A program made the position numbers and the translations under genes. From IMG/VR virus record IMGVR_UViG_2522572164_000007: a DNA stretch of 42,200 nucleotides; one strand, given 5' to 3'. This document shows, piece after piece, positions 2,599 to 8,067 of the stretch (positions within the stretch are counted from its first letter, which is position 1; each line of letters begins with the position of its first letter). The notes under the pieces were generated by a model. It was given only the letters and a program-made list of their open reading frames with translations. It was not told the origin of the DNA and made no database searches. The DNA is from a virus (taxonomy: Duplodnaviria; Heunggongvirae; Uroviricota; Caudoviricetes).

Positions 2599-3168
2599 TC
2601 AACTCCGGCTACAGCCAAAATTGCGCTCACCGGTGCAGTGAGCTTTGGTATGCTCCTTCGCCAGATAGTCAGCACGTTCCAGCACCTGCTGAAAGCCGGT
2701 GTCATCATTACGCGCCAGCCACACCGCCGGCCAGGCCGGAAAATGCACCAGCGTGGCATGGCACCCGACATCCACTCCCAGGGCACTGCACCACGCCTGT
2801 TTAATCATCCCGGCCAGAGACTCCGGAGCGCGGTAATCACCGGCACGACACCAGGTATCCCGGTTGACCAGCAGCATCAGGTGATAGTGTTTTTTACCTT
2901 TGCACTCCCCAAACTCCCGGGCCCAGACGTAATGCAGGGTTGTGGGATGCACGCGTTTACCTTCCCGATGCTTACGTTTCTGGTAAGCGTCGATTCGGGC
3001 TTTCAGGGCATTGATGAAGCGGGATATCACAGCTGCGTCCGTTGCTGCCGGTACATCCGGGAGACGCAGGTCAACCCGCAATGCCGTCAGGCGGGGATGA
3101 ACATTCAGTGCGTGCCGCACCGTCTCACGAATACGTTGCTGCCAGAAGGGGTTGTATTTGTAGGTCAT
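2599..3168 (-). CDS. YagK/YfjJ-like (inovirus Gp2 family) protein
   Basis: ORF 2599..3240 trimmed to the ATG at 3168 with a GGAGA RBS; family assignment is from memory of E. coli cryptic-prophage YfjJ/YagK proteins. Confidence 0.45.
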   Translation of the reverse strand: MTYKYNPFWQQRIRETVRHALNVHPRLTALRVDLRLPDVPAATDAAVISRFINALKARIDAYQKRKHREGKRVHPTTLHYVWAREFGECKGKKHYHLMLLVNRDTWCRAGDYRAPESLAGMIKQAWCSALGVDVGCHATLVHFPAWPAVWLARNDDTGFQQVLERADYLAKEHTKAHCTGERNFGCSRS

Positions 3169-3333
3169 GGTTAAATCTCCGTATGGTTCATACGGAATAG
3201 CCACGTATAGCGCGGCGATTTTTTTGATACCGATTTGCATTTCATTTGATACCGCTGAAAAACGCCGATACGCAACTTATTTGATACTAAATCGGCGCTT
3301 TTCTTTTGAGTTTTAGAATGAGTTTTTAAGCGC

Positions 3334-4071
3334 TCATTCACTCTCTTTCAAACCAGTTTTAACTGTTTGTGGTTTTGGGTAAGGGTGGACTTTGAATAGC
3401 TTTGTGTTGAGGCGTTTTCTGGCCCTCTTGTTCAGAAACCGGATGTAACGAAACTGTCGGAACTTATGCACACTGGCTCTGTCGATATTAGCCCTCAGAT
3501 GTTCACCTCGTTGTCCGCCTCGTTTAATGGCACTCCTGCAAATCTCGTGATACCACTCGCCATCAAGTTCATAGAATGTTGATTCATGGCTGCCTACATA
3601 ATCAAAATTGCTGGCCTGATACACGACACCAAGACAGCCACAACGCTCATCTGCAAACGACTGAACCCACTGTACCTGCGGATAAAGCTGCCTGATTAGC
3701 TTGAGCGCGTAACTGATTGCCCTTGATTCGGAGTTTCTCGGCATACAGTCATGCATCCATAGCCGGTTAAGCTCCATATATTCTCGGTTCTGCGTACCCG
3801 TTACGACGCGTGCACCACTGTTTGGGTTAAGGGCGTAACCCCATTGCATTACGCCAACAAGTTCCCGTTCTGAAAATATACCCAGATGAAGGTAGGAATT
3901 ATTTACGAAACGGTGGCTGTAATGTTTATTGACGATAACCAGTCTGGCCAGCCAGCAACTTATTGTCTCAACCCGCAACTCACGGGAGCCATAACCAACG
4001 ATATTGTCGTTATAGCGAATAAGTTCAGGCGTGCTGATGATACGGGATGTGACTTGCTTTCTGTTCCCCAC
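3334..4071 (-). CDS. mom: Mom-like DNA modification protein
   Basis: 245-aa ORF immediately downstream of, and overlapping, a Com-like zinc-finger gene at the far end of a Mu-like genome; size fits Mu Mom (about 230 aa). Start codon uncertain. Confidence 0.6.
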
Positions 4072-4225
4072 GACAGGATTTCCTTGTGTATGTGGGGTGC
4101 TCTGTGGCGCTCGGAGATGTGATTTGATTGAGGGTTTTACAGCGCGGACATTTTACTTCCAGATAACTGAAACTGGCCCGTGCCAGTAGCTTATTGCAGT
4201 GTCGGCACCGTATGTTTCGATACAT
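4025..4225 (-). CDS. com: Com-like zinc-finger translational activator of mom
   Basis: ORF 4025..4270 trimmed to the ATG at 4225 (GGAGG upstream). [30 protein letters not shown] resembles the Mu Com motif IRCKNCNKLL...CPRCK. Confidence 0.7.
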
Positions 4226-4261
4226 GGCCGCATAACCTCCTGCTTTGTTGTTGATGCCTTT

Positions 4262-4450
4262 CTCATGCAATCGATCGACAAAAACGATCGATTCGATTTG
4301 TTTAATTGATACAACAAATAGATTTAAAAGTCATCAACAATGATTCAGGGCGGTGATTATTTACTTAAAGAAACGAAGAGTTAGGTGGTGAAAACGATCA
4401 TAAAATGATCATTTTATTGACTTTTTATACAGTGAAGGTAGGATCGCGCG
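4262..4450 (-). promoter_or_regulatory. com-mom upstream regulatory region with clustered GATC (Dam) sites
   Basis: GATC at 4273, 4286, 4396, 4407 and 4442 (five in under 190 bp), directly upstream of com. Mu Pmom is known to be controlled by Dam methylation of upstream GATC sites that affects OxyR binding. Confidence 0.45.
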
Positions 4451-4497
4451 TATATGTAGTATGTTTCAAATCAACAGGATACTACATAAAAGTGAAA

Positions 4498-4523
4498 CCC
4501 AGCATAGCTGGAACTATGCTGGG
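4498..4523 (-). terminator. Candidate rho-independent terminator on the minus strand, upstream of the com-mom promoter
   Basis: Perfect 10-bp stem CCCAGCATAG / CTATGCTGGG with a 6-nt loop; on the minus strand it is followed by UUUCACUUUUAU. Confidence 0.4.
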
Positions 4524-4631
4524 TCAATCTGTAAAAACTTGCATCAATGCTTTACTTCGAGCTCGTGGCGTATCCTATGATATTCCCCGGTCTCCTGTAA
4601 AGCAGAGATGCATAAAAAGGAGATCTTTATC

Positions 4632-4802
4632 ATGGATAAAGAGCCTGTTTGCCCTGCCTGTAAGACTCCCTTACAGCTCATCTATCGCCGTTCTCGATCT
4701 CAAAATGGCAAGACATACAAACCAAAAAATGCTTCCTGTTTCAGGATGCTGATATGTCCTGCCTGTTCTCCCCGGAGGGAAAATACACAAAACGTGCATT
4801 AA
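4632..4802 (+). CDS. Small zinc-ribbon protein (CPxC...CPxC)
   Basis: ORF 4608..4802 trimmed to the ATG at 4632 with an AAGGAG RBS; MDKEPVCPACKTPLQLIYRRS...ICPACS; convergent with the 81-aa minus-strand gene. Confidence 0.45.
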   Translation: MDKEPVCPACKTPLQLIYRRSRSQNGKTYKPKNASCFRMLICPACSPRRENTQNVH

Positions 4803-4811
4803 CAAATTCAC

Positions 4812-4831
4812 CCGGCAGGGAAACCTGCCGG
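4812..4831. terminator. Bidirectional hairpin terminator between convergent genes
   Basis: CCGGCAGG-GAAA-CCTGCCGG (8-bp GC-rich stem, tetraloop) between the stop at 4802 (+) and the stop at 4841 (-); T-rich runs on both sides. Confidence 0.5.
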
Positions 4832-4840
4832 TCGGTATTG

Positions 4841-5086
4841 TTACATCATAGTACCGTCAGTTCCGGGCTGAACCGGCTCTGGTTGCTCTACGGGTTGAGG
4901 CTCATTTTCCGTGCTGTTTTCAGCCGGAGAACGACCAACCATTCGGGCCAGCACTTCATCAACATATGCGTCGATTTGTGCCTCAAAATCCTTGCGAACC
5001 TGCGCCTTCAGCACGCGGTTCACTTCTTCAGAATAAAGTGCCTGTTTGACAAGCTCTTCAGTAACCGTGCCTTTAATCTCTGGCAT
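4841..5086 (-). CDS. Hypothetical small acidic protein (81 aa)
   Basis: ATG at 5086 preceded by GGAGA; acidic, Pro/Glu-rich C-terminus; no family recognised. Confidence 0.5.
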   Translation of the reverse strand: MPEIKGTVTEELVKQALYSEEVNRVLKAQVRKDFEAQIDAYVDEVLARMVGRSPAENSTENEPQPVEQPEPVQPGTDGTMM

Positions 5087-5121
5087 GAATATTCTCCTTT
5101 CCTTTTCTGGTTCACAAAAAA

Positions 5122-5301
5122 TTAAATCTGACCGGAGTCTTTCGGCTGCGGCATTACAGCACCGCTTTTTATCTTTTCCTCGGCAGCTGCATCAATTTTA
5201 TTTCGAAAATAATTGCGAATAATTTTATAACCACCGCTGACAAGCAACAGACAACAAACCACCGTGCAGAAATACAGCAGGCAGACGTTTATATATGTCA
5301 T
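5122..5301 (-). CDS. Hypothetical small membrane protein (59 aa; below the ORF-track size cutoff)
   Basis: My own translation of the reverse complement from ATG 5301 to TAA 5122: MTYINVCLLYFCTVVCCLLLVSGGYKIIRNYFRNK...; one hydrophobic helix; GAGG upstream; sits between the esterase and the 81-aa gene. Confidence 0.3.
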   Translation of the reverse strand: MTYINVCLLYFCTVVCCLLLVSGGYKIIRNYFRNKIDAAAEEKIKSGAVMPQPKDSGQI

Positions 5302-5358
5302 ATAAGCCTCACTCTTATTAACTGATGTTACAGCCGGATAAATTCCCGGCCGTCACGA

Positions 5359-7416
5359 TTATGCCGCAGGGGTATTAACCTCAAGGACAACGCTCTCAAA
5401 AGACACGCCATAAGTTGCCCCTTTGGTGACATCTGTCAGTGTCAGCGTATCTTTGGCAGGGGAAAGTGCATCTTTCACCATCTGGAATGCCTGGCCCGGA
5501 GTGCCATCCAGCACAGGCGTTACCTGGGCACTTCCCGCCGTAAACTTCAGGACAAGTGTATGCCACTGGTTATTGTAGGCTCCAAATGATCCCAGTTTCG
5601 TATTCCCCCCTGTTTTATGGTGCATCAGATTTAACTGGCCGCCTGTTGTCTGGAGATAATACGCCATCAGGAACGGTGTGCCTGTACCACTCATGGTTAC
5701 ACCTTCCGGGACCGTATCGGTGTGGAGGTAAATACCCAGAGCAAACTGGCCTTCTTTTACTTCACCTGACAGACGGAATTTACAGGTCAACTGACCACCA
5801 TGCTTCAGAAGTTCACCGGCTGCATCAGTTCCATGGGTAAGCGTCCAGGTTTTTCCGCTTTGTTTGGATACGGTCAACGCTTTACCTTCGTCCGTCAGCT
5901 GGATTGTACCATCTGTAATTTTCCAGCCCTGAGCCGGGGCTTCTCCTGCTGATGCTTTAAGTGAAAGCAGCGTACGGAGTGACGGGGATGTCGGATGGGG
6001 GGACTCACTGCCTCCTGGCTGACTACCTGTCGGCGCTTCCGGTTTCCCACCCGGCGCGGGCTGAGGCAGGGCTTCACCATCAGGGGCCACACCGGCAATA
6101 AATGCAGAGGTCAGACCTGCATATTTAAGAATTGCTGATGCAAAACGATCTGAGACCAGAAAACGGCGCGCCCAGGAGCTAAAATGGGTTGCCCTGGATG
6201 CTGTTGTCCAGTTGCCATCTCCCCGTGATTCCGCACCATAATACCCGGCAGAAGCGATATCCGGGTCGTGCTCCGGCAGGTTGGTCGCGGTTTTATTACC
6301 GAACTCATCGTGCATCAGTGGAACAAAGTGAATGTTCTCGGAAGCCCGGTTTTTATATCCGCTATAAATGGTTTCATATGCCGCCGGGTTCTTCTCTTTC
6401 CAGTCATAGGTTGTGTCACCACATAACCACGGCACACTGTCTGATGAACCACCAATACACTGACCGGAGAAAGCACCAAGATCCGCACGGAATTTTTTCA
6501 CCATCGCAGTAAACTGGGCACCATGCTGGGCCGGGGTCGCTTTAAGGTCTCCTTCCCCCTGAATCCATACGACAGATAACAGCACATTCTTTGGATTCGC
6601 CTCAAGTGCCGCTTTAGTTCGACTGACAAGATCCTGATACAGTGGGGTATCCACTCCCCAGCGTAGTGACGCCTCGGCTGCACCACTTGCCGGATCGAAT
6701 GAGCCAACTGCGCCGGTTGTAAAAGCAGAGCCGCCACGGGCACAGGGAACCAGTAAAATCCCGGCATCAGCAGGAATCACCGGTAATACTTTTTTCGCAA
6801 TATGAAGTCCCTGCCCCACACAACCATACTGCCCTTTTTTCAGGTCTGCTTTTGGATGGTTCAGCAGACTCATATTCTGAACATCATGAAGGCAGTGATC
6901 TGCTGGAATGATTTCATTGTATTTGCAGGGAATACCTCCGGGGGTTTGTGTATTCCTGCGTGCCAGCTGCATAATACGTGGATCAGGACGATCATAAGAA
7001 TCCGGAAGGGGCAACCCTTCACCATAAGATGAAGCATTGGACTGGCCGGCTATAACAATCACGTAATACCAGGAAGGGGAGCTGGAAGCCGTTTCATTTC
7101 CTGCCGGACGGGTATGTGTTTCTGCATTATCCCAGTCTGACGGTTCAGCAGTACCGGCAACATCAGCACTTAACGGAATGACAGCACCAATACCCGCTCC
7201 GGTAATTTCCACGTTCGGATCACCGGATACTGGCCTTACCCACAGGCAATCCTGTGTATTAAAACTGATGAGACAGTCAGCAAATGTCATTCCTCCTTTC
7301 GTTTCAGCAGGAGGAAAGGGAGCCTCAAGAAATGCCGCTGTACCACCGGAAACTTTAACGGTAAAGTTTCCGGGCATTGATGATAGTTGAACCCATTTGG
7401 ACGTCATAATATTCAT
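5359..7416 (-). CDS. Sialate O-acetylesterase, NanS-p-like (SGNH hydrolase) with extra N- and C-terminal domains
   Basis: 685-aa ORF with YVIVIAGQSNASSYGEG (GQSN block of SGNH esterases); overall architecture resembles the prophage NanS-p esterases of enterohaemorrhagic E. coli. Confidence 0.7.
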   Translation of the reverse strand: MNIMTSKWVQLSSMPGNFTVKVSGGTAAFLEAPFPPAETKGGMTFADCLISFNTQDCLWVRPVSGDPNVEITGAGIGAVIPLSADVAGTAEPSDWDNAETHTRPAGNETASSSPSWYYVIVIAGQSNASSYGEGLPLPDSYDRPDPRIMQLARRNTQTPGGIPCKYNEIIPADHCLHDVQNMSLLNHPKADLKKGQYGCVGQGLHIAKKVLPVIPADAGILLVPCARGGSAFTTGAVGSFDPASGAAEASLRWGVDTPLYQDLVSRTKAALEANPKNVLLSVVWIQGEGDLKATPAQHGAQFTAMVKKFRADLGAFSGQCIGGSSDSVPWLCGDTTYDWKEKNPAAYETIYSGYKNRASENIHFVPLMHDEFGNKTATNLPEHDPDIASAGYYGAESRGDGNWTTASRATHFSSWARRFLVSDRFASAILKYAGLTSAFIAGVAPDGEALPQPAPGGKPEAPTGSQPGGSESPHPTSPSLRTLLSLKASAGEAPAQGWKITDGTIQLTDEGKALTVSKQSGKTWTLTHGTDAAGELLKHGGQLTCKFRLSGEVKEGQFALGIYLHTDTVPEGVTMSGTGTPFLMAYYLQTTGGQLNLMHHKTGGNTKLGSFGAYNNQWHTLVLKFTAGSAQVTPVLDGTPGQAFQMVKDALSPAKDTLTLTDVTKGATYGVSFESVVLEVNTPAA

Positions 7417-7506
7417 CCTGTTCCTGAATAAACAGAATTATCATATCCACAGACCGATAAACGCCATTTTGCGTTAATTCAGTAAAGGCCCAACAAAGGG
7501 AGCGTC

Positions 7507-8067
7507 TTATTTTTCCGAAACGCTCGCAGGATAATAACGATAAAGGGTTGAAAGGCCGATATCAAAAATAAGTGCCACCTGTCTTCGACTGACACCCCCG
7601 GCCAGTAAACGCCCGACCTGCTCGTATTGTTCCTGCGTGAGACGACGGGGTCTGCCGCCGGTTCGTCCCCTTTCACGGGCAGCTGCAAGACCAGCCCGTG
7701 TCCGTTCGACAATTAATTCACGCTCCATTTCTGCCAGCGCACCCATTATGTGAAAAAAGAAGCGCCCCATGGGGGTTGACGTATCAATGTTGTCAGTAAG
7801 ACTACGAAAATTTATCCCCTGTTGCTGTAATTCATCTGTCAGCGCAACAAGGTGGCGCATACTGCGCCCCAGCCTGTCCAGTTTCCAGACCATCAGTGTG
7901 TCACCGGGTTTTAGTTTCTTCAGTGCCCGCTTCAGTCCCGGCCGCTGTGTCGTTTTACCACTCATTTTATCTTCAAAAATCTGCTCACATCCTGCACATT
8001 CCAGCGCATTTCTTTGTAAACCTGTGTTCTGGTCATTTGTTGATACGCGTATATAGCCAATCAGCAT
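7507..8067 (-). CDS. gin: Serine recombinase, DNA invertase Gin/Hin/Pin/Cin family
   Basis: 186 aa; MLIGYIRVSTNDQNTGLQRNAL... is the resolvase/invertase catalytic N-terminus, with a C-terminal HTH (GRPRRL...STLYRY). Confidence 0.9.
   Translation of the reverse strand: MLIGYIRVSTNDQNTGLQRNALECAGCEQIFEDKMSGKTTQRPGLKRALKKLKPGDTLMVWKLDRLGRSMRHLVALTDELQQQGINFRSLTDNIDTSTPMGRFFFHIMGALAEMERELIVERTRAGLAAARERGRTGGRPRRLTQEQYEQVGRLLAGGVSRRQVALIFDIGLSTLYRYYPASVSEK

What the first reader, a model, noticed from the sequence alone, without database searches (positions are those of the whole stretch)
4632..5301. Cassette of three small genes with dedicated terminators between the esterase and com
Downstream of the esterase are a 59-aa single-helix membrane ORF (5122..5301) and an 81-aa acidic protein (4841..5086). 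Convergent to them is a 56-aa CPxC...CPxC zinc-ribbon protein (4632..4802). A GC-rich hairpin (4812..4831) separates the convergent genes. None is assignable to a family by eye. Small membrane plus small acidic protein pairs in phage accessory slots are often toxin/antitoxin-like, superinfection-exclusion or anti-defence functions. The zinc ribbon loosely resembles Com and lies in the mom control region.
Basis: inference. Interest (0 to 1): 0.55.

Follow-up and report, generated by a model that had tools for sequence, protein, structure and literature searches.

The report
Two unrelated gene modules meeting head-on
The three small genes are real, but they are not one cassette. Two are the usual, still uncharacterised companions of a sialic-acid esterase borrowed from Shiga-toxin-type phages. 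The third is a small zinc-ribbon gene that databases mis-annotate, and it sits with its own conserved structured leader in a swappable slot opposite the com-mom genes of Mu-like prophages.

Summary
The window is an Sp18-type Mu-like prophage. All three ORFs and the hairpin lie at the stated coordinates.

The 59-aa and 81-aa proteins can be assigned to families: Pfam DUF1378 (E 9e-24) and DUF826 (E 3e-15). With the upstream NanS-p-like esterase they form a three-gene block. Lambdoid and Stx phages carry the same block, in the same order, between Q/stx and holin S. Here the block sits between gin and com-mom and has diverged about evenly (53/45/39% identity). Its function is unknown, and I found nothing that points to a toxin-antitoxin pair.

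The 56-aa zinc ribbon belongs to a different module:
- A 47%-identical homologue occupies the same place opposite com in Mu-like prophages of another enterobacterium.
- Changes that leave the protein unaltered are enriched only in its reading frame (p = 0.002).
- Related phages carry unrelated small genes at this spot.
- It is not a Com homologue.

RefSeq's 154-aa ORF (ECs_4996), or "frameshifted pseudogene", at this locus is most likely an artefact. Its upstream part is a conserved leader of about 180 nt, with covarying stems, promoters flanked by GATC sites, and a hairpin over the start codon.

Overall the finding is ordinary. It yields one modestly new re-annotation and one candidate regulatory RNA.

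The parts
5359..7416 (-). NanS-p-like sialate O-acetylesterase (SASA + DUF6645), first gene of the imported three-gene block
   Evidence: Pfam SASA 1.6e-13 and DUF6645 8e-26; phrog_143 2e-273. 53% identical to VT2-Sakai NanS-p.
5122..5301 (-). DUF1378 protein, 59 aa: one N-terminal membrane helix (res 4-22) and a basic C-terminal tail
   Evidence: PF07125 9.2e-24, 83.8 bits against a cut-off of 25; phrog_494 4e-29. Hydropathy. 45% identical to the PhiR12_4 homologue.
4841..5086 (-). DUF826 protein, 81 aa, acidic: conserved helical N-terminal part of about 50 residues and a disordered acidic Pro-rich tail
   Evidence: PF05696 3.1e-15; phrog_311 5e-30. AlphaFold2 model: helices 10-17 and 20-50 (10-residue blocks 21-50 average pLDDT 91-97), residues 56-81 below 50. 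Alignment.
4800..4843 (.). Palindrome between the convergent genes. The core is an 8-bp GC stem at 4812-4831; the outer arms TAACAA/TTGTTA are the two stop codons. Probable weak bidirectional terminator.
   Evidence: I1. Not flagged as a terminator because it has no T-run. Identical in all close relatives. A different hairpin sits at the same place in L190.
4632..4802 (+). Zinc-ribbon gene, 56 aa, basic (pI 9.8), C4 (C7, C10, C42, C45). Cargo of the variable slot opposite com-mom.
   Evidence: 47%-identical homologue P0097 at the syntenic site. Silent changes in excess only in this frame. Four Cys, GKTYxP and CPxCSP invariant. AlphaFold2 pLDDT 80, four beta strands.
4617..4642 (+). Translation start region: AAGGAG at 4617-4622, 9 nt before the ATG, and an 8-bp hairpin (4624-4631 / 4635-4642) with the ATG as its 3-nt loop
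   Evidence: Sequence; inverted repeat I9; predicted in the consensus fold.
4451..4631 (+). Conserved structured leader of about 180 nt: helix 1 at 4453-4488, helix 2 at 4497-4524, and a long-range stem 4540-4555 with 4597-4612 that encloses an inner hairpin
   Evidence: More conserved than the coding sequence across classes A, B and C. Consensus fold and pair counts: 94% of cells paired, 8 pairs with compensatory change. Nine different helix-2 stems all fold. No Rfam family.
4417..4444 (+). Sigma-70-like promoter TTGACT-16-TAGGAT for the zinc-ribbon transcript. GATC sites lie at 4396-4399, 4407-4410 and 4442-4445; the last overlaps the -10 hexamer.
   Evidence: found independently at the homologous place in the window, Sakai and class B. 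Both hexamers are kept while about 9 of 16 spacer bases differ (read from the sequences).
4572..4601 (-). Promoter-like site TTTACA-18-TAGGAT inside the leader, pointing at helix 2. Possible source of an antisense RNA of about 75-80 nt (unproven).
   Evidence: Both hexamers are invariant in 18 alleles while the spacer varies; the -35 is fixed by the search pattern used to find the loci. Helix 2 plus a T-rich tail is flagged as a minus-strand terminator in the window and in Sakai only.
4025..4225 (-). com (PGAP start at 4225; the listed ORF runs to 4270). Its upstream region holds the GATC palindrome 4269-4293.
   Evidence: PF10122 3.3e-12; PGAP coordinates; inverted repeat I6.
3334..4071 (-). 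mom
   Evidence: PF25680 8.4e-77; 71% nucleotide identity to Mu and D108 mom.

Best explanation
Two independent modules of an Sp18-type Mu-like prophage meet tail to tail at 4800-4843.

**Module 1 (minus strand).** This is the end of a three-gene block, esterase - DUF1378 - DUF826. It is the same block that lambdoid and Stx phages carry between Q/stx and holin S. Here it lies between gin and com-mom; phage Mu has only 94 bp at that position.
- Shown: the block keeps its order in both phage types, its three genes have diverged about evenly, and it ends in a hairpin.
- Inferred: the three genes form one transcript. DUF1378 is a single-pass membrane protein with its C-terminus in the cytoplasm. 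DUF826 is a cytoplasmic acidic helical partner. The pair works with or alongside the esterase, not with the lambdoid lysis genes, because it has stayed linked to the esterase in a phage whose lysis genes are elsewhere.

**Module 2 (plus strand).** This is a small basic C4 zinc-ribbon gene in a variable cargo slot, divergent from com-mom.
- Inferred: it is transcribed from a sigma-70-like promoter set among Dam (GATC) sites, through a conserved structured leader of about 180 nt. A weak hairpin holds the AUG in its loop, and an upstream anti-Shine-Dalgarno stretch could pair with the ribosome-binding site, so translation is probably gated.
- Inferred: the protein most likely binds nucleic acid and acts as an accessory regulator or anti-defence factor. 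It is not a Com paralogue.

The 154-aa ORF and the 'frameshifted pseudogene' that annotation pipelines call here are artefacts of reading through the leader.
For: **Module 1**
- Family assignments.
- Same gene order in VT2-Sakai and PhiR12_4 and in the literature (PMC10462455).
- Phage records holding the esterase, DUF1378 and DUF826 number 347, 309 and 306, with nearly the same breakdown by phage type.
- Identity to the lambdoid copies is 53%, 45% and 39%.
- The trio is present in every Mu-like locus of this type that I examined.
- Mu has a 94-bp gin-com spacer.
- A terminator follows DUF826 in PhiR12_4 and a hairpin follows it here.

**Module 2**
- P0097 (E 2.7e-7, 47% identity) lies divergent from com in loci that lack gin and the esterase, and it has its own canonical terminator.
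- 11 silent against 10 protein-changing variable sites, where 22% silent is expected: p = 0.002. The other two frames give p = 0.97 and 0.08.
- The slot holds other genes in classes C and D.

**Against the long ORF**
- Its frame relation to the zinc ribbon changes through 1-2 nt indels.
- Class B has an in-frame TAA (read from the sequence).
- Its middle part is replaced by different sequences that keep a hairpin.

**Leader structure:**
Against: - There are no expression data for any of these genes, so the transcript structure, the promoters and the translational gating are all inferred.
- The link between the esterase and the small pair rests on co-occurrence and linkage alone. About 40 phage records have the esterase without a detectable pair at the thresholds used.
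- Some zinc-ribbon alleles are damaged: a 2-nt deletion in L009, a 1-nt deletion in L113, and Cys7 to Tyr in the L020 type. Selection is therefore not strict everywhere.
- The covariation evidence comes from only six leader sequences. One measure, the count of further pair types, is not above the shuffles.
- The anti-Shine-Dalgarno pairing is not the structure the consensus fold prefers, and it is absent in class C.
Confidence: 0.7

Rival explanations
1. One cassette of three small genes acts as a toxin/antitoxin-like, superinfection-exclusion or anti-defence unit: the 59-aa membrane protein is the toxin or effector, the 81-aa acidic protein neutralises it, and the zinc ribbon is a Com-like regulator.
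For: A membrane protein next to an acidic protein, tightly co-occurring (306 and 309 phage records), in an accessory position. The zinc ribbon lies next to the mom control region.
Against: - No toxin, antitoxin or defence domains.
- The pair is always downstream of the esterase and, in lambdoid phages, sits in the late operon before the holin. That position argues against expression in the lysogen.
- No promoter of its own was found.
- The zinc ribbon occurs without the pair, and the pair occurs with other slot genes.
- The similarity to Com is one zinc knuckle only.
Confidence: 0.1
2. The database view. The plus-strand gene is the 154-aa protein annotated in O157 Sakai (ECs_4996, WP_115801860), and the window carries a frameshifted pseudogene of it. 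The 56-aa zinc ribbon is then only its C-terminal remnant.
For: PGAP calls a 154-aa CDS in O157 and a 'frameshifted' pseudogene in a near-identical relative of the window. Gene callers report 135-154-aa ORFs in many assemblies.
Against: - Only the O157 lineage has the fused frame. Most alleles (135 aa) end in a different frame from the zinc ribbon.
- The tail of the 135-aa frame changes by protein-altering substitutions, while the zinc-ribbon frame is conserved.
- Class B has a stop in that frame.
- The central part is replaced by unrelated residues that keep an RNA hairpin.
- The ORF would run through the promoter, and no family matches its N-terminal part.
Confidence: 0.07
3. An antisense-RNA-controlled small gene, like a type I toxin-antitoxin or the lambda OOP / P22 sar RNAs. 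A minus-strand RNA of about 75-80 nt starts about 7 nt downstream of the TTTACA-18-TAGGAT promoter-like site (4601..4572), ends at helix 2 (4524..4497), and pairs with the zinc-ribbon leader to control its translation or stability.
For: - The promoter-like site lies at the same place in the window, Sakai and class B.
- The hexamers are invariant while the spacer varies.
- Helix 2 followed by TTTCACTTTTAT is flagged as a minus-strand terminator.
- The L015 and L122_u2 versions of helix 2 fold 5-6 kcal/mol better on the minus strand.
- A long structured leader with an occluded start is typical of such loci (established knowledge of type I systems).
Against: - The T-tract is poor in most alleles, and class B is not flagged.
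- The consensus fold is better on the plus strand (-49.5 against -42.4).
- The -35 hexamer is fixed by my search pattern, and both hexamers also lie in plus-strand stems.
- The protein is hydrophilic and basic, unlike most type I toxins.
- The one Hfq-bound RNA candidate on record for Sp18, EcOnc37, maps elsewhere.
Confidence: 0.2
4. The hairpins between DUF826 and com are chiefly transcription insulators. They stop minus-strand read-through from the tail, gin and esterase genes before it reaches the toxic mom operon. On this view the zinc-ribbon ORF is incidental.
For: Untimely mom expression is cytotoxic and is guarded by many layers (PMC3378877). Two to three stable hairpins lie in the path of minus-strand transcription. 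Helix 2 scores as a minus-strand terminator in the window.
Against: This does not explain the conserved plus-strand promoter, the Shine-Dalgarno sequence, the start-codon hairpin, the purifying selection on the zinc-ribbon frame, or the conserved stretch of about 100 nt outside the hairpins. The two roles could coexist.
Confidence: 0.15

Closest known systems
The nanS-p region of Stx and other lambdoid phages (933W L0105 and the small ORFs before holin S; VT2-Sakai orf42/orf43)
   Same: Same three genes in the same order and orientation: SASA/DUF6645 esterase, DUF1378, DUF826. The block ends in a hairpin or terminator (PMC10462455).
   Different: The host phage type and the position differ. 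Here it is a Mu-like myovirus with the block between gin and com-mom, not between Q/stx and holin S. Identity is only 39-53%, so this is an old lineage and not a recent transfer.
Prophage Sp18 of E. coli O157:H7 Sakai (ECs_4992-ECs_4998)
   Same: Same prophage type and the same gene order: gin, esterase, DUF1378, DUF826, plus-strand ORF, com, mom. The stretch 4280-5100 is 98.8% identical in O157:H7 genomes.
   Different: - The window carries another allele of DUF1378 and the esterase; homology to the O157 type breaks at about 5100.
- It lacks two single bases that, in Sakai, fuse the leader and the zinc ribbon into the annotated 154-aa ORF.
- It has a much shorter spacer between the esterase and DUF1378.
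Phage Mu com-mom control region with divergent promoters momP1/momP2, Dam/OxyR sites and Com-dependent translation
   Same: GATC clusters upstream of com; a divergently oriented promoter; a small C4 zinc protein nearby; a start codon held in a hairpin (PMC4287176, PMC3378877).
   Different: - Mu has no gene on the divergent side, because gin ends 94 bp before com.
- The plus-strand promoter here lies about 190 bp from the com ATG, so it does not visibly overlap the mom promoter.
- The non-coding region is not alignable with Mu.
- The zinc ribbon is not a Com homologue.
Phage morons and variable accessory slots (extra genes with their own signals inserted between conserved phage genes)
   Same: Both modules are add-ons relative to Mu. 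They are bounded by hairpins or terminators, and the slot opposite com holds alternative unrelated small genes.
   Different: The slot keeps a conserved structured leader while the cargo changes (classes A, B and C). I know of no described Mu-like example of this, and that statement rests on my own knowledge, not on a test.

Membership tests
Pfam DUF1378 (PF07125) | Profile score above the gathering threshold over most of the model | tested here: met
   83.8 bits against a cut-off of 25; residues 1-48 match model positions 1-48 of 59. phrog_494 4e-29.
Pfam DUF826 (PF05696) | Profile score above the gathering threshold | tested here: met
   56.5 bits against a cut-off of 25; residues 1-52. phrog_311 5e-30.
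Lambdoid nanS-p late-region block | Gene order esterase, DUF1378, DUF826 on one strand | tested here: met
   Window 7416 down to 4841. The same order occurs in VT2-Sakai and PhiR12_4.
Lambdoid nanS-p late-region block | Location between antiterminator Q (or stx) and holin S in the late operon | tested here: not met
   Here it lies between gin and com-mom of a Mu-like prophage.
Com family (PF10122, Zn_ribbon_Com) | Match to the Com profile | tested here: not met
   No PF10122 hit for the 56-aa protein at E <= 0.1, whereas the neighbouring com scores 3.3e-12. hhalign probability 15% over 17 non-collinear columns.
Com family (PF10122, Zn_ribbon_Com) | Gene lies just upstream of, and overlaps, the modification gene on the same strand | tested here: not met
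   The zinc-ribbon gene is on the opposite strand, about 400 bp from com.
Zinc ribbon (generic C4 fold) | Two CxxC knuckles on beta hairpins | tested here: met
   CPAC at 7-10 and CPAC at 42-45, invariant in intact alleles of both classes. The model has four beta strands at pLDDT 80. Metal binding itself cannot be tested here.
Toxin-antitoxin pair (type II-like) for DUF1378/DUF826 | Recognisable toxin or antitoxin domain, or a match to a defence-system model | tested here: not met
   Only the two DUF families match in Pfam. There are no significant NCBIfam matches and no PADLOC matches.
Toxin-antitoxin pair (type II-like) for DUF1378/DUF826 | Growth inhibition by one partner, relieved by the other | not testable with these tools
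   Needs inducible expression.
Type I toxin-antitoxin / antisense-RNA-controlled gene | Antisense RNA gene overlapping the mRNA leader | tested here: inconclusive
   A conserved promoter-like site and a hairpin lie on the minus strand. The T-tract is weak, there are no transcript data, and the plus-strand fold scores better.
Type I toxin-antitoxin / antisense-RNA-controlled gene | Small hydrophobic membrane-active toxin | tested here: not met
   The zinc-ribbon protein is hydrophilic: the highest 19-residue hydropathy is 0.08 and pI is 9.8.
Intrinsic (Rho-independent) terminator, for 4812-4831 | GC-rich stem directly followed by a T-run | tested here: inconclusive
   The stem is stable, but neither strand has 5 T in the 8 bases after it, so the scan does not list it. 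The tails are TCGGTATTGTT and GTGAATTTGTT.
Rfam RNA families, for the leader 4451-4631 | Covariance-model match at the gathering score | tested here: not met
   The best match is E 0.08 at 19.6 bits against a gathering score of 50, to an unrelated S. aureus sRNA.

The most novel reading that the evidence does not exclude
The stretch between com and the zinc-ribbon gene is an undescribed regulatory RNA platform of enterobacterial Mu-like prophages. It consists of a promoter flanked by Dam sites, a conserved three-helix leader of about 180 nt, possibly an internal antisense RNA, and a hairpin over the start codon. This platform is kept while the small cargo gene behind it is swapped (two zinc-ribbon classes or an unrelated 68-aa protein). 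The cargo proteins would then be conditionally expressed accessory factors, for example anti-restriction or anti-defence factors that complement Mom. The platform would tie their expression to the methylation or replication state of the phage DNA, as Dam sites do for mom.
Probability: 0.25. Interest if true: 0.55.

Novelty: new member of a known kind. Interest (0 to 1): 0.33.

Why it matters
For the two minus-strand genes the result tidies up annotation. They are the standard, uncharacterised companions of NanS-p, and they stay linked to the esterase even in a Mu-like phage. That is the first hint that they work with the esterase and not with the lambdoid lysis genes, which gives a concrete experiment for two DUF families found in most Stx phages.

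For the plus-strand gene the result corrects a widespread annotation: a 154-aa ECs_4996-type CDS or 'pseudogene' in about 217 of 5,426 complete E. coli genomes (4%). It also defines a small zinc-ribbon family with a conserved leader next to the mom anti-restriction operon. If the leader proves to be a regulatory platform for swappable cargo, it would be a useful handle for finding small accessory genes in transposable phages.

Tried and rejected
- **Profile searches.** Pfam, PHROGs, NCBIfam and PADLOC give nothing significant for the zinc ribbon. The best matches are Trm112p at E 0.005, below threshold, and phrog_9584 at E 0.008-0.012 for both zinc-ribbon classes (function unknown).\n- **Structure searches.** The DUF826 model has no PDB match. 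The zinc-ribbon model has no match with E < 0.05 in PDB or BFVD. The afdb50 library was unavailable.\n- **PDB sequence searches** for all three proteins: nothing with E below 0.4.\n- **RalR/Lar restriction-alleviation zinc ribbon** as a relative of the zinc ribbon: hhalign probability 1%, rejected.\n- **Zinc-ribbon relatives in one genome per species** (GTDB): none.\n- **An exact 17-mer scan of that collection** returned 87 chance hits in unrelated GC-rich genomes and wasted the scan.\n- **A metagenome scan** gave 62 stretches, of which only 8 were true relatives.\n- **A first silent/protein-changing count** was inflated by the frameshifted L009 allele and was redone.\n- **MAFFT alignment of the helix-2 units** put the two arms out of register, so I folded each unit separately instead of counting pairs on that alignment.\n- **EcOnc37**, the one Hfq-bound RNA candidate reported in Sp18, lies about 0.9 kb away, near the 3' end of the esterase. 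It is not the leader.\n- **A promoter for the esterase block:** none convincing.\n- **Literature.** No paper in the library mentions nanS-p together with Mu-like phages, or ECs4993-4996.
Full report
**Setting.** The window is a Mu-like prophage read on its reverse strand. It contains a Gin-type invertase (7507-8067, -), a SASA/DUF6645 esterase (5359-7416, -), com (4025-4225, -) and mom (3334-4071, -). It belongs to the Sp18 type. In O157:H7 Sakai the same order is annotated as ECs_4992 to ECs_4998 inside 'prophage Sp18, Mu-like phage'. The stretch 4280-5360 has a match in 217 of 5,426 complete E. coli genomes. The prophage sits at many different chromosomal sites, as expected of a transposable phage.

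**The observation.**
- The 59-aa protein has one strongly hydrophobic segment (residues 4-22).
- The 81-aa protein is acidic (pI 4.4).
- The 56-aa protein is basic (pI 9.8) and has two CPAC knuckles.
- The 4812-4831 hairpin folds at about -21 kcal/mol on either strand, better than all 200 shuffles.
- The hairpin is the core of a 20-nt-arm palindrome (4800-4843) whose outer arms are the two stop codons.
- It has no T-run, so the terminator scan does not list it.

**The two minus-strand genes.** They can be assigned: DUF1378 (PF07125, 9e-24) and DUF826 (PF05696, 3e-15), with matching PHROGs. PGAP already names them so.

In lambdoid phages the order is Q or stx, NanS-p esterase, DUF1378, DUF826, holin S, as seen in VT2-Sakai and PhiR12_4. 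A survey of Stx2a phages also notes DUF826 and DUF1378 ORFs between nanS-p and S (PMC10462455).

In the phage collection the esterase, DUF1378 and the lambdoid DUF826 are found in 347, 309 and 306 records, with almost the same breakdown by phage type. The window's three proteins are 53%, 45% and 39% identical to the lambdoid ones. The block was therefore inherited as a unit long ago and was not recently copied.

Mu itself has only 94 bp between gin and com, so the block is an insertion relative to Mu. It ends in a hairpin here and in a strong terminator in PhiR12_4. I found no convincing promoter for the block.

The DUF826 model is a long helix (residues 20-50; 10-residue blocks 21-50 average pLDDT 91-97) with a disordered acidic tail, and it has no match in the PDB. 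No toxin, antitoxin or defence profile matches either protein. Function is unknown.

My inference is that the pair acts with or beside the esterase. It rests only on their staying linked in a phage whose lysis genes lie elsewhere.

**The plus-strand gene: what pipelines call.** Pipelines disagree. PGAP calls a 154-aa CDS in O157 and a 'frameshifted' pseudogene in a near-identical relative of the window. Other gene callers report 135-aa ORFs.

Alignment shows that the frame relation between the upstream part and the zinc ribbon changes through 1-2 nt indels. Only the O157 lineage has them in one frame. There, an extra G after ATGGAT creates a new in-frame ATG 4 nt downstream. The middle of the long ORF is replaced in other alleles by unrelated residues, but the DNA there keeps a hairpin of about 8-13 bp with a different stem sequence. 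In class B the long frame contains a TAA (sequence).

**The plus-strand gene: evidence that the 56-aa ORF is real.** An exhaustive profile search found a 53-aa protein, P0097 (47% identical, E 2.7e-7), with the same four Cys, GKTYxP and CPxCSP. It lies at the same place, divergent from com, in Mu-like prophages of another enterobacterium. The host flank there is about 80% identical to E. coli. Those prophages have no gin and no esterase block at that position, and the gene has its own canonical terminator.

Pooling variable sites within the two classes gives 11 silent against 10 protein-changing sites in the zinc-ribbon frame, where 22% silent is expected (p = 0.002). The other two frames give p = 0.97 and 0.08. 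A few alleles are damaged: a 2-nt deletion, a 1-nt deletion, and Cys7 to Tyr.

The model is a four-stranded zinc ribbon (pLDDT 80) with no informative structural neighbour. It is not a Com relative and not a RalR/Lar relative.

Related phages carry an unrelated 68-aa gene behind the same leader, or an 86-aa gene behind a different one. The place is therefore a variable cargo slot.

**The leader.** Between com and the zinc-ribbon ATG, about 180 nt are more conserved at the DNA level than the coding sequence that follows.
- A TTGACT-16-TAGGAT (or TAAGAT) promoter is found independently in the window, Sakai and class B. Its hexamers are kept while the spacer diverges, and GATC sites lie just upstream and over the -10 hexamer.
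- The predicted transcript folds into helix 1 (4453-4488), helix 2 (4497-4524) and a long-range stem (4540-4555 with 4597-4612) around an inner hairpin.
- On six distinct sequences 94% of cells are paired. Eight pairs show compensatory change (17 of 500 shuffles reach that). Twelve cells show change on both sides (0 of 500).
- The ATG sits in the 3-nt loop of an 8-bp hairpin.
- An upstream GGUCUCCU (4589-4596) could pair with the Shine-Dalgarno region (read from the sequence).
- No Rfam family matches.

A promoter-like site on the minus strand (4601..4572) points at helix 2, which in the window is followed by a T-rich tail. That would give an antisense RNA of about 75-80 nt. The evidence is ambiguous, because the consensus fold favours the plus strand (-49.5 against -42.4 kcal/mol) and the T-tract is weak in most alleles.

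Mu is known to have a divergent promoter, momP2, overlapping momP1 (PMC4287176, PMC3378877). The promoter here is about 190 bp from the com ATG, so I do not claim that the two are equivalent.

**Verdict.** The finding is real but mostly ordinary. It is the junction of a known, annotated esterase block and a small accessory gene. The new elements are three:
- the re-annotation of the plus-strand locus as a 56-aa zinc-ribbon gene;
- its membership in a small family tied to com-mom;
- a candidate structured leader in front of it.

None of the functional statements is supported by expression data.

Noticed in passing
L023:6398-7610 (compare L024:6728-7610): In one class B Mu-like prophage, com is followed and overlapped by a 350-aa C-5 cytosine DNA methyltransferase (PF00145, 5.7e-41) instead of mom. 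The sister locus has com-mom. This looks like a swap of the Com-controlled modification enzyme.
   Followed up: no
window:5302-5358; L194:3979-4124 (Sakai): Tree et al. 2014 (PMC4104026, Table S2) list an Hfq-bound candidate sRNA, EcOnc37, in Sp18 at Sakai 5077340-5077410 (-). That is antisense near the 3' end of the esterase or in the spacer before DUF1378. A minus-strand terminator-like site lies in the Sakai spacer (L194 4056..4043). The window allele has a much shorter spacer and may lack it.
   Followed up: partly
P0092 (relative of window 4153-5086): A natural variant fuses the N-terminal half of DUF826 to sequence upstream of com. This implies a deletion of about 650 bp that removes the zinc-ribbon gene, its leader and part of the mom control region.
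   Followed up: no
window:4269-4293 and 4391-4426: There are two GATC-containing palindromes. AATCGATCG(N7)CGATCGATT lies 45-70 nt upstream of the com ATG and is conserved in class B. An 18-nt-arm imperfect palindrome carries two GATC sites and overlaps the -35 of the plus-strand promoter. Both are possible operator or Dam/OxyR-type sites.
   Followed up: partly
L122, L124, L119, L125 (leader region): Some alleles carry a tandem second copy of the helix-2 unit of about 75 nt (GCATYAATGC, U-rich spacer, hairpin, CCCTTTATGTAG). The unit can therefore duplicate.
   Followed up: partly
window:~5100: Homology to the O157/O111 type of this prophage breaks between DUF826 and DUF1378. The stretch 4280-5100 is about 96-99% identical in roughly 170 genomes, whereas DUF1378 and the esterase are a different allele, and the whole 4806-7500 stretch aligns over only 49% of its length at about 86% identity. 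This is a recombination joint inside the block.
   Followed up: partly
LC727881.1 37102-40411; LC727895.1 40695-44004: Two published Stx-converting phage records carry this type of Mu-like phage inserted within them. It is annotated there as 'region of the inserted Bacteriophage Mu-like phage'.
   Followed up: no
window:437-3240: Outside the phage end lie IS66-type orfA/orfB-like ORFs (437-1182), two overlapping Cys-rich ORFs (1516-2345) and a YagK/YfjJ-domain protein (2599-3240, PF11726 6e-48). The prophage abuts another mobile-element remnant.
   Followed up: no
ON470599.1 32434-33678 (phage vB_EcoM-569R5): A 33.7-kb E. coli myovirus record carries an esterase homologue (55% identity over 65% of NanS-p) at the very end of the record. 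It may be an isolated phage of the same Mu-like type.
   Followed up: no
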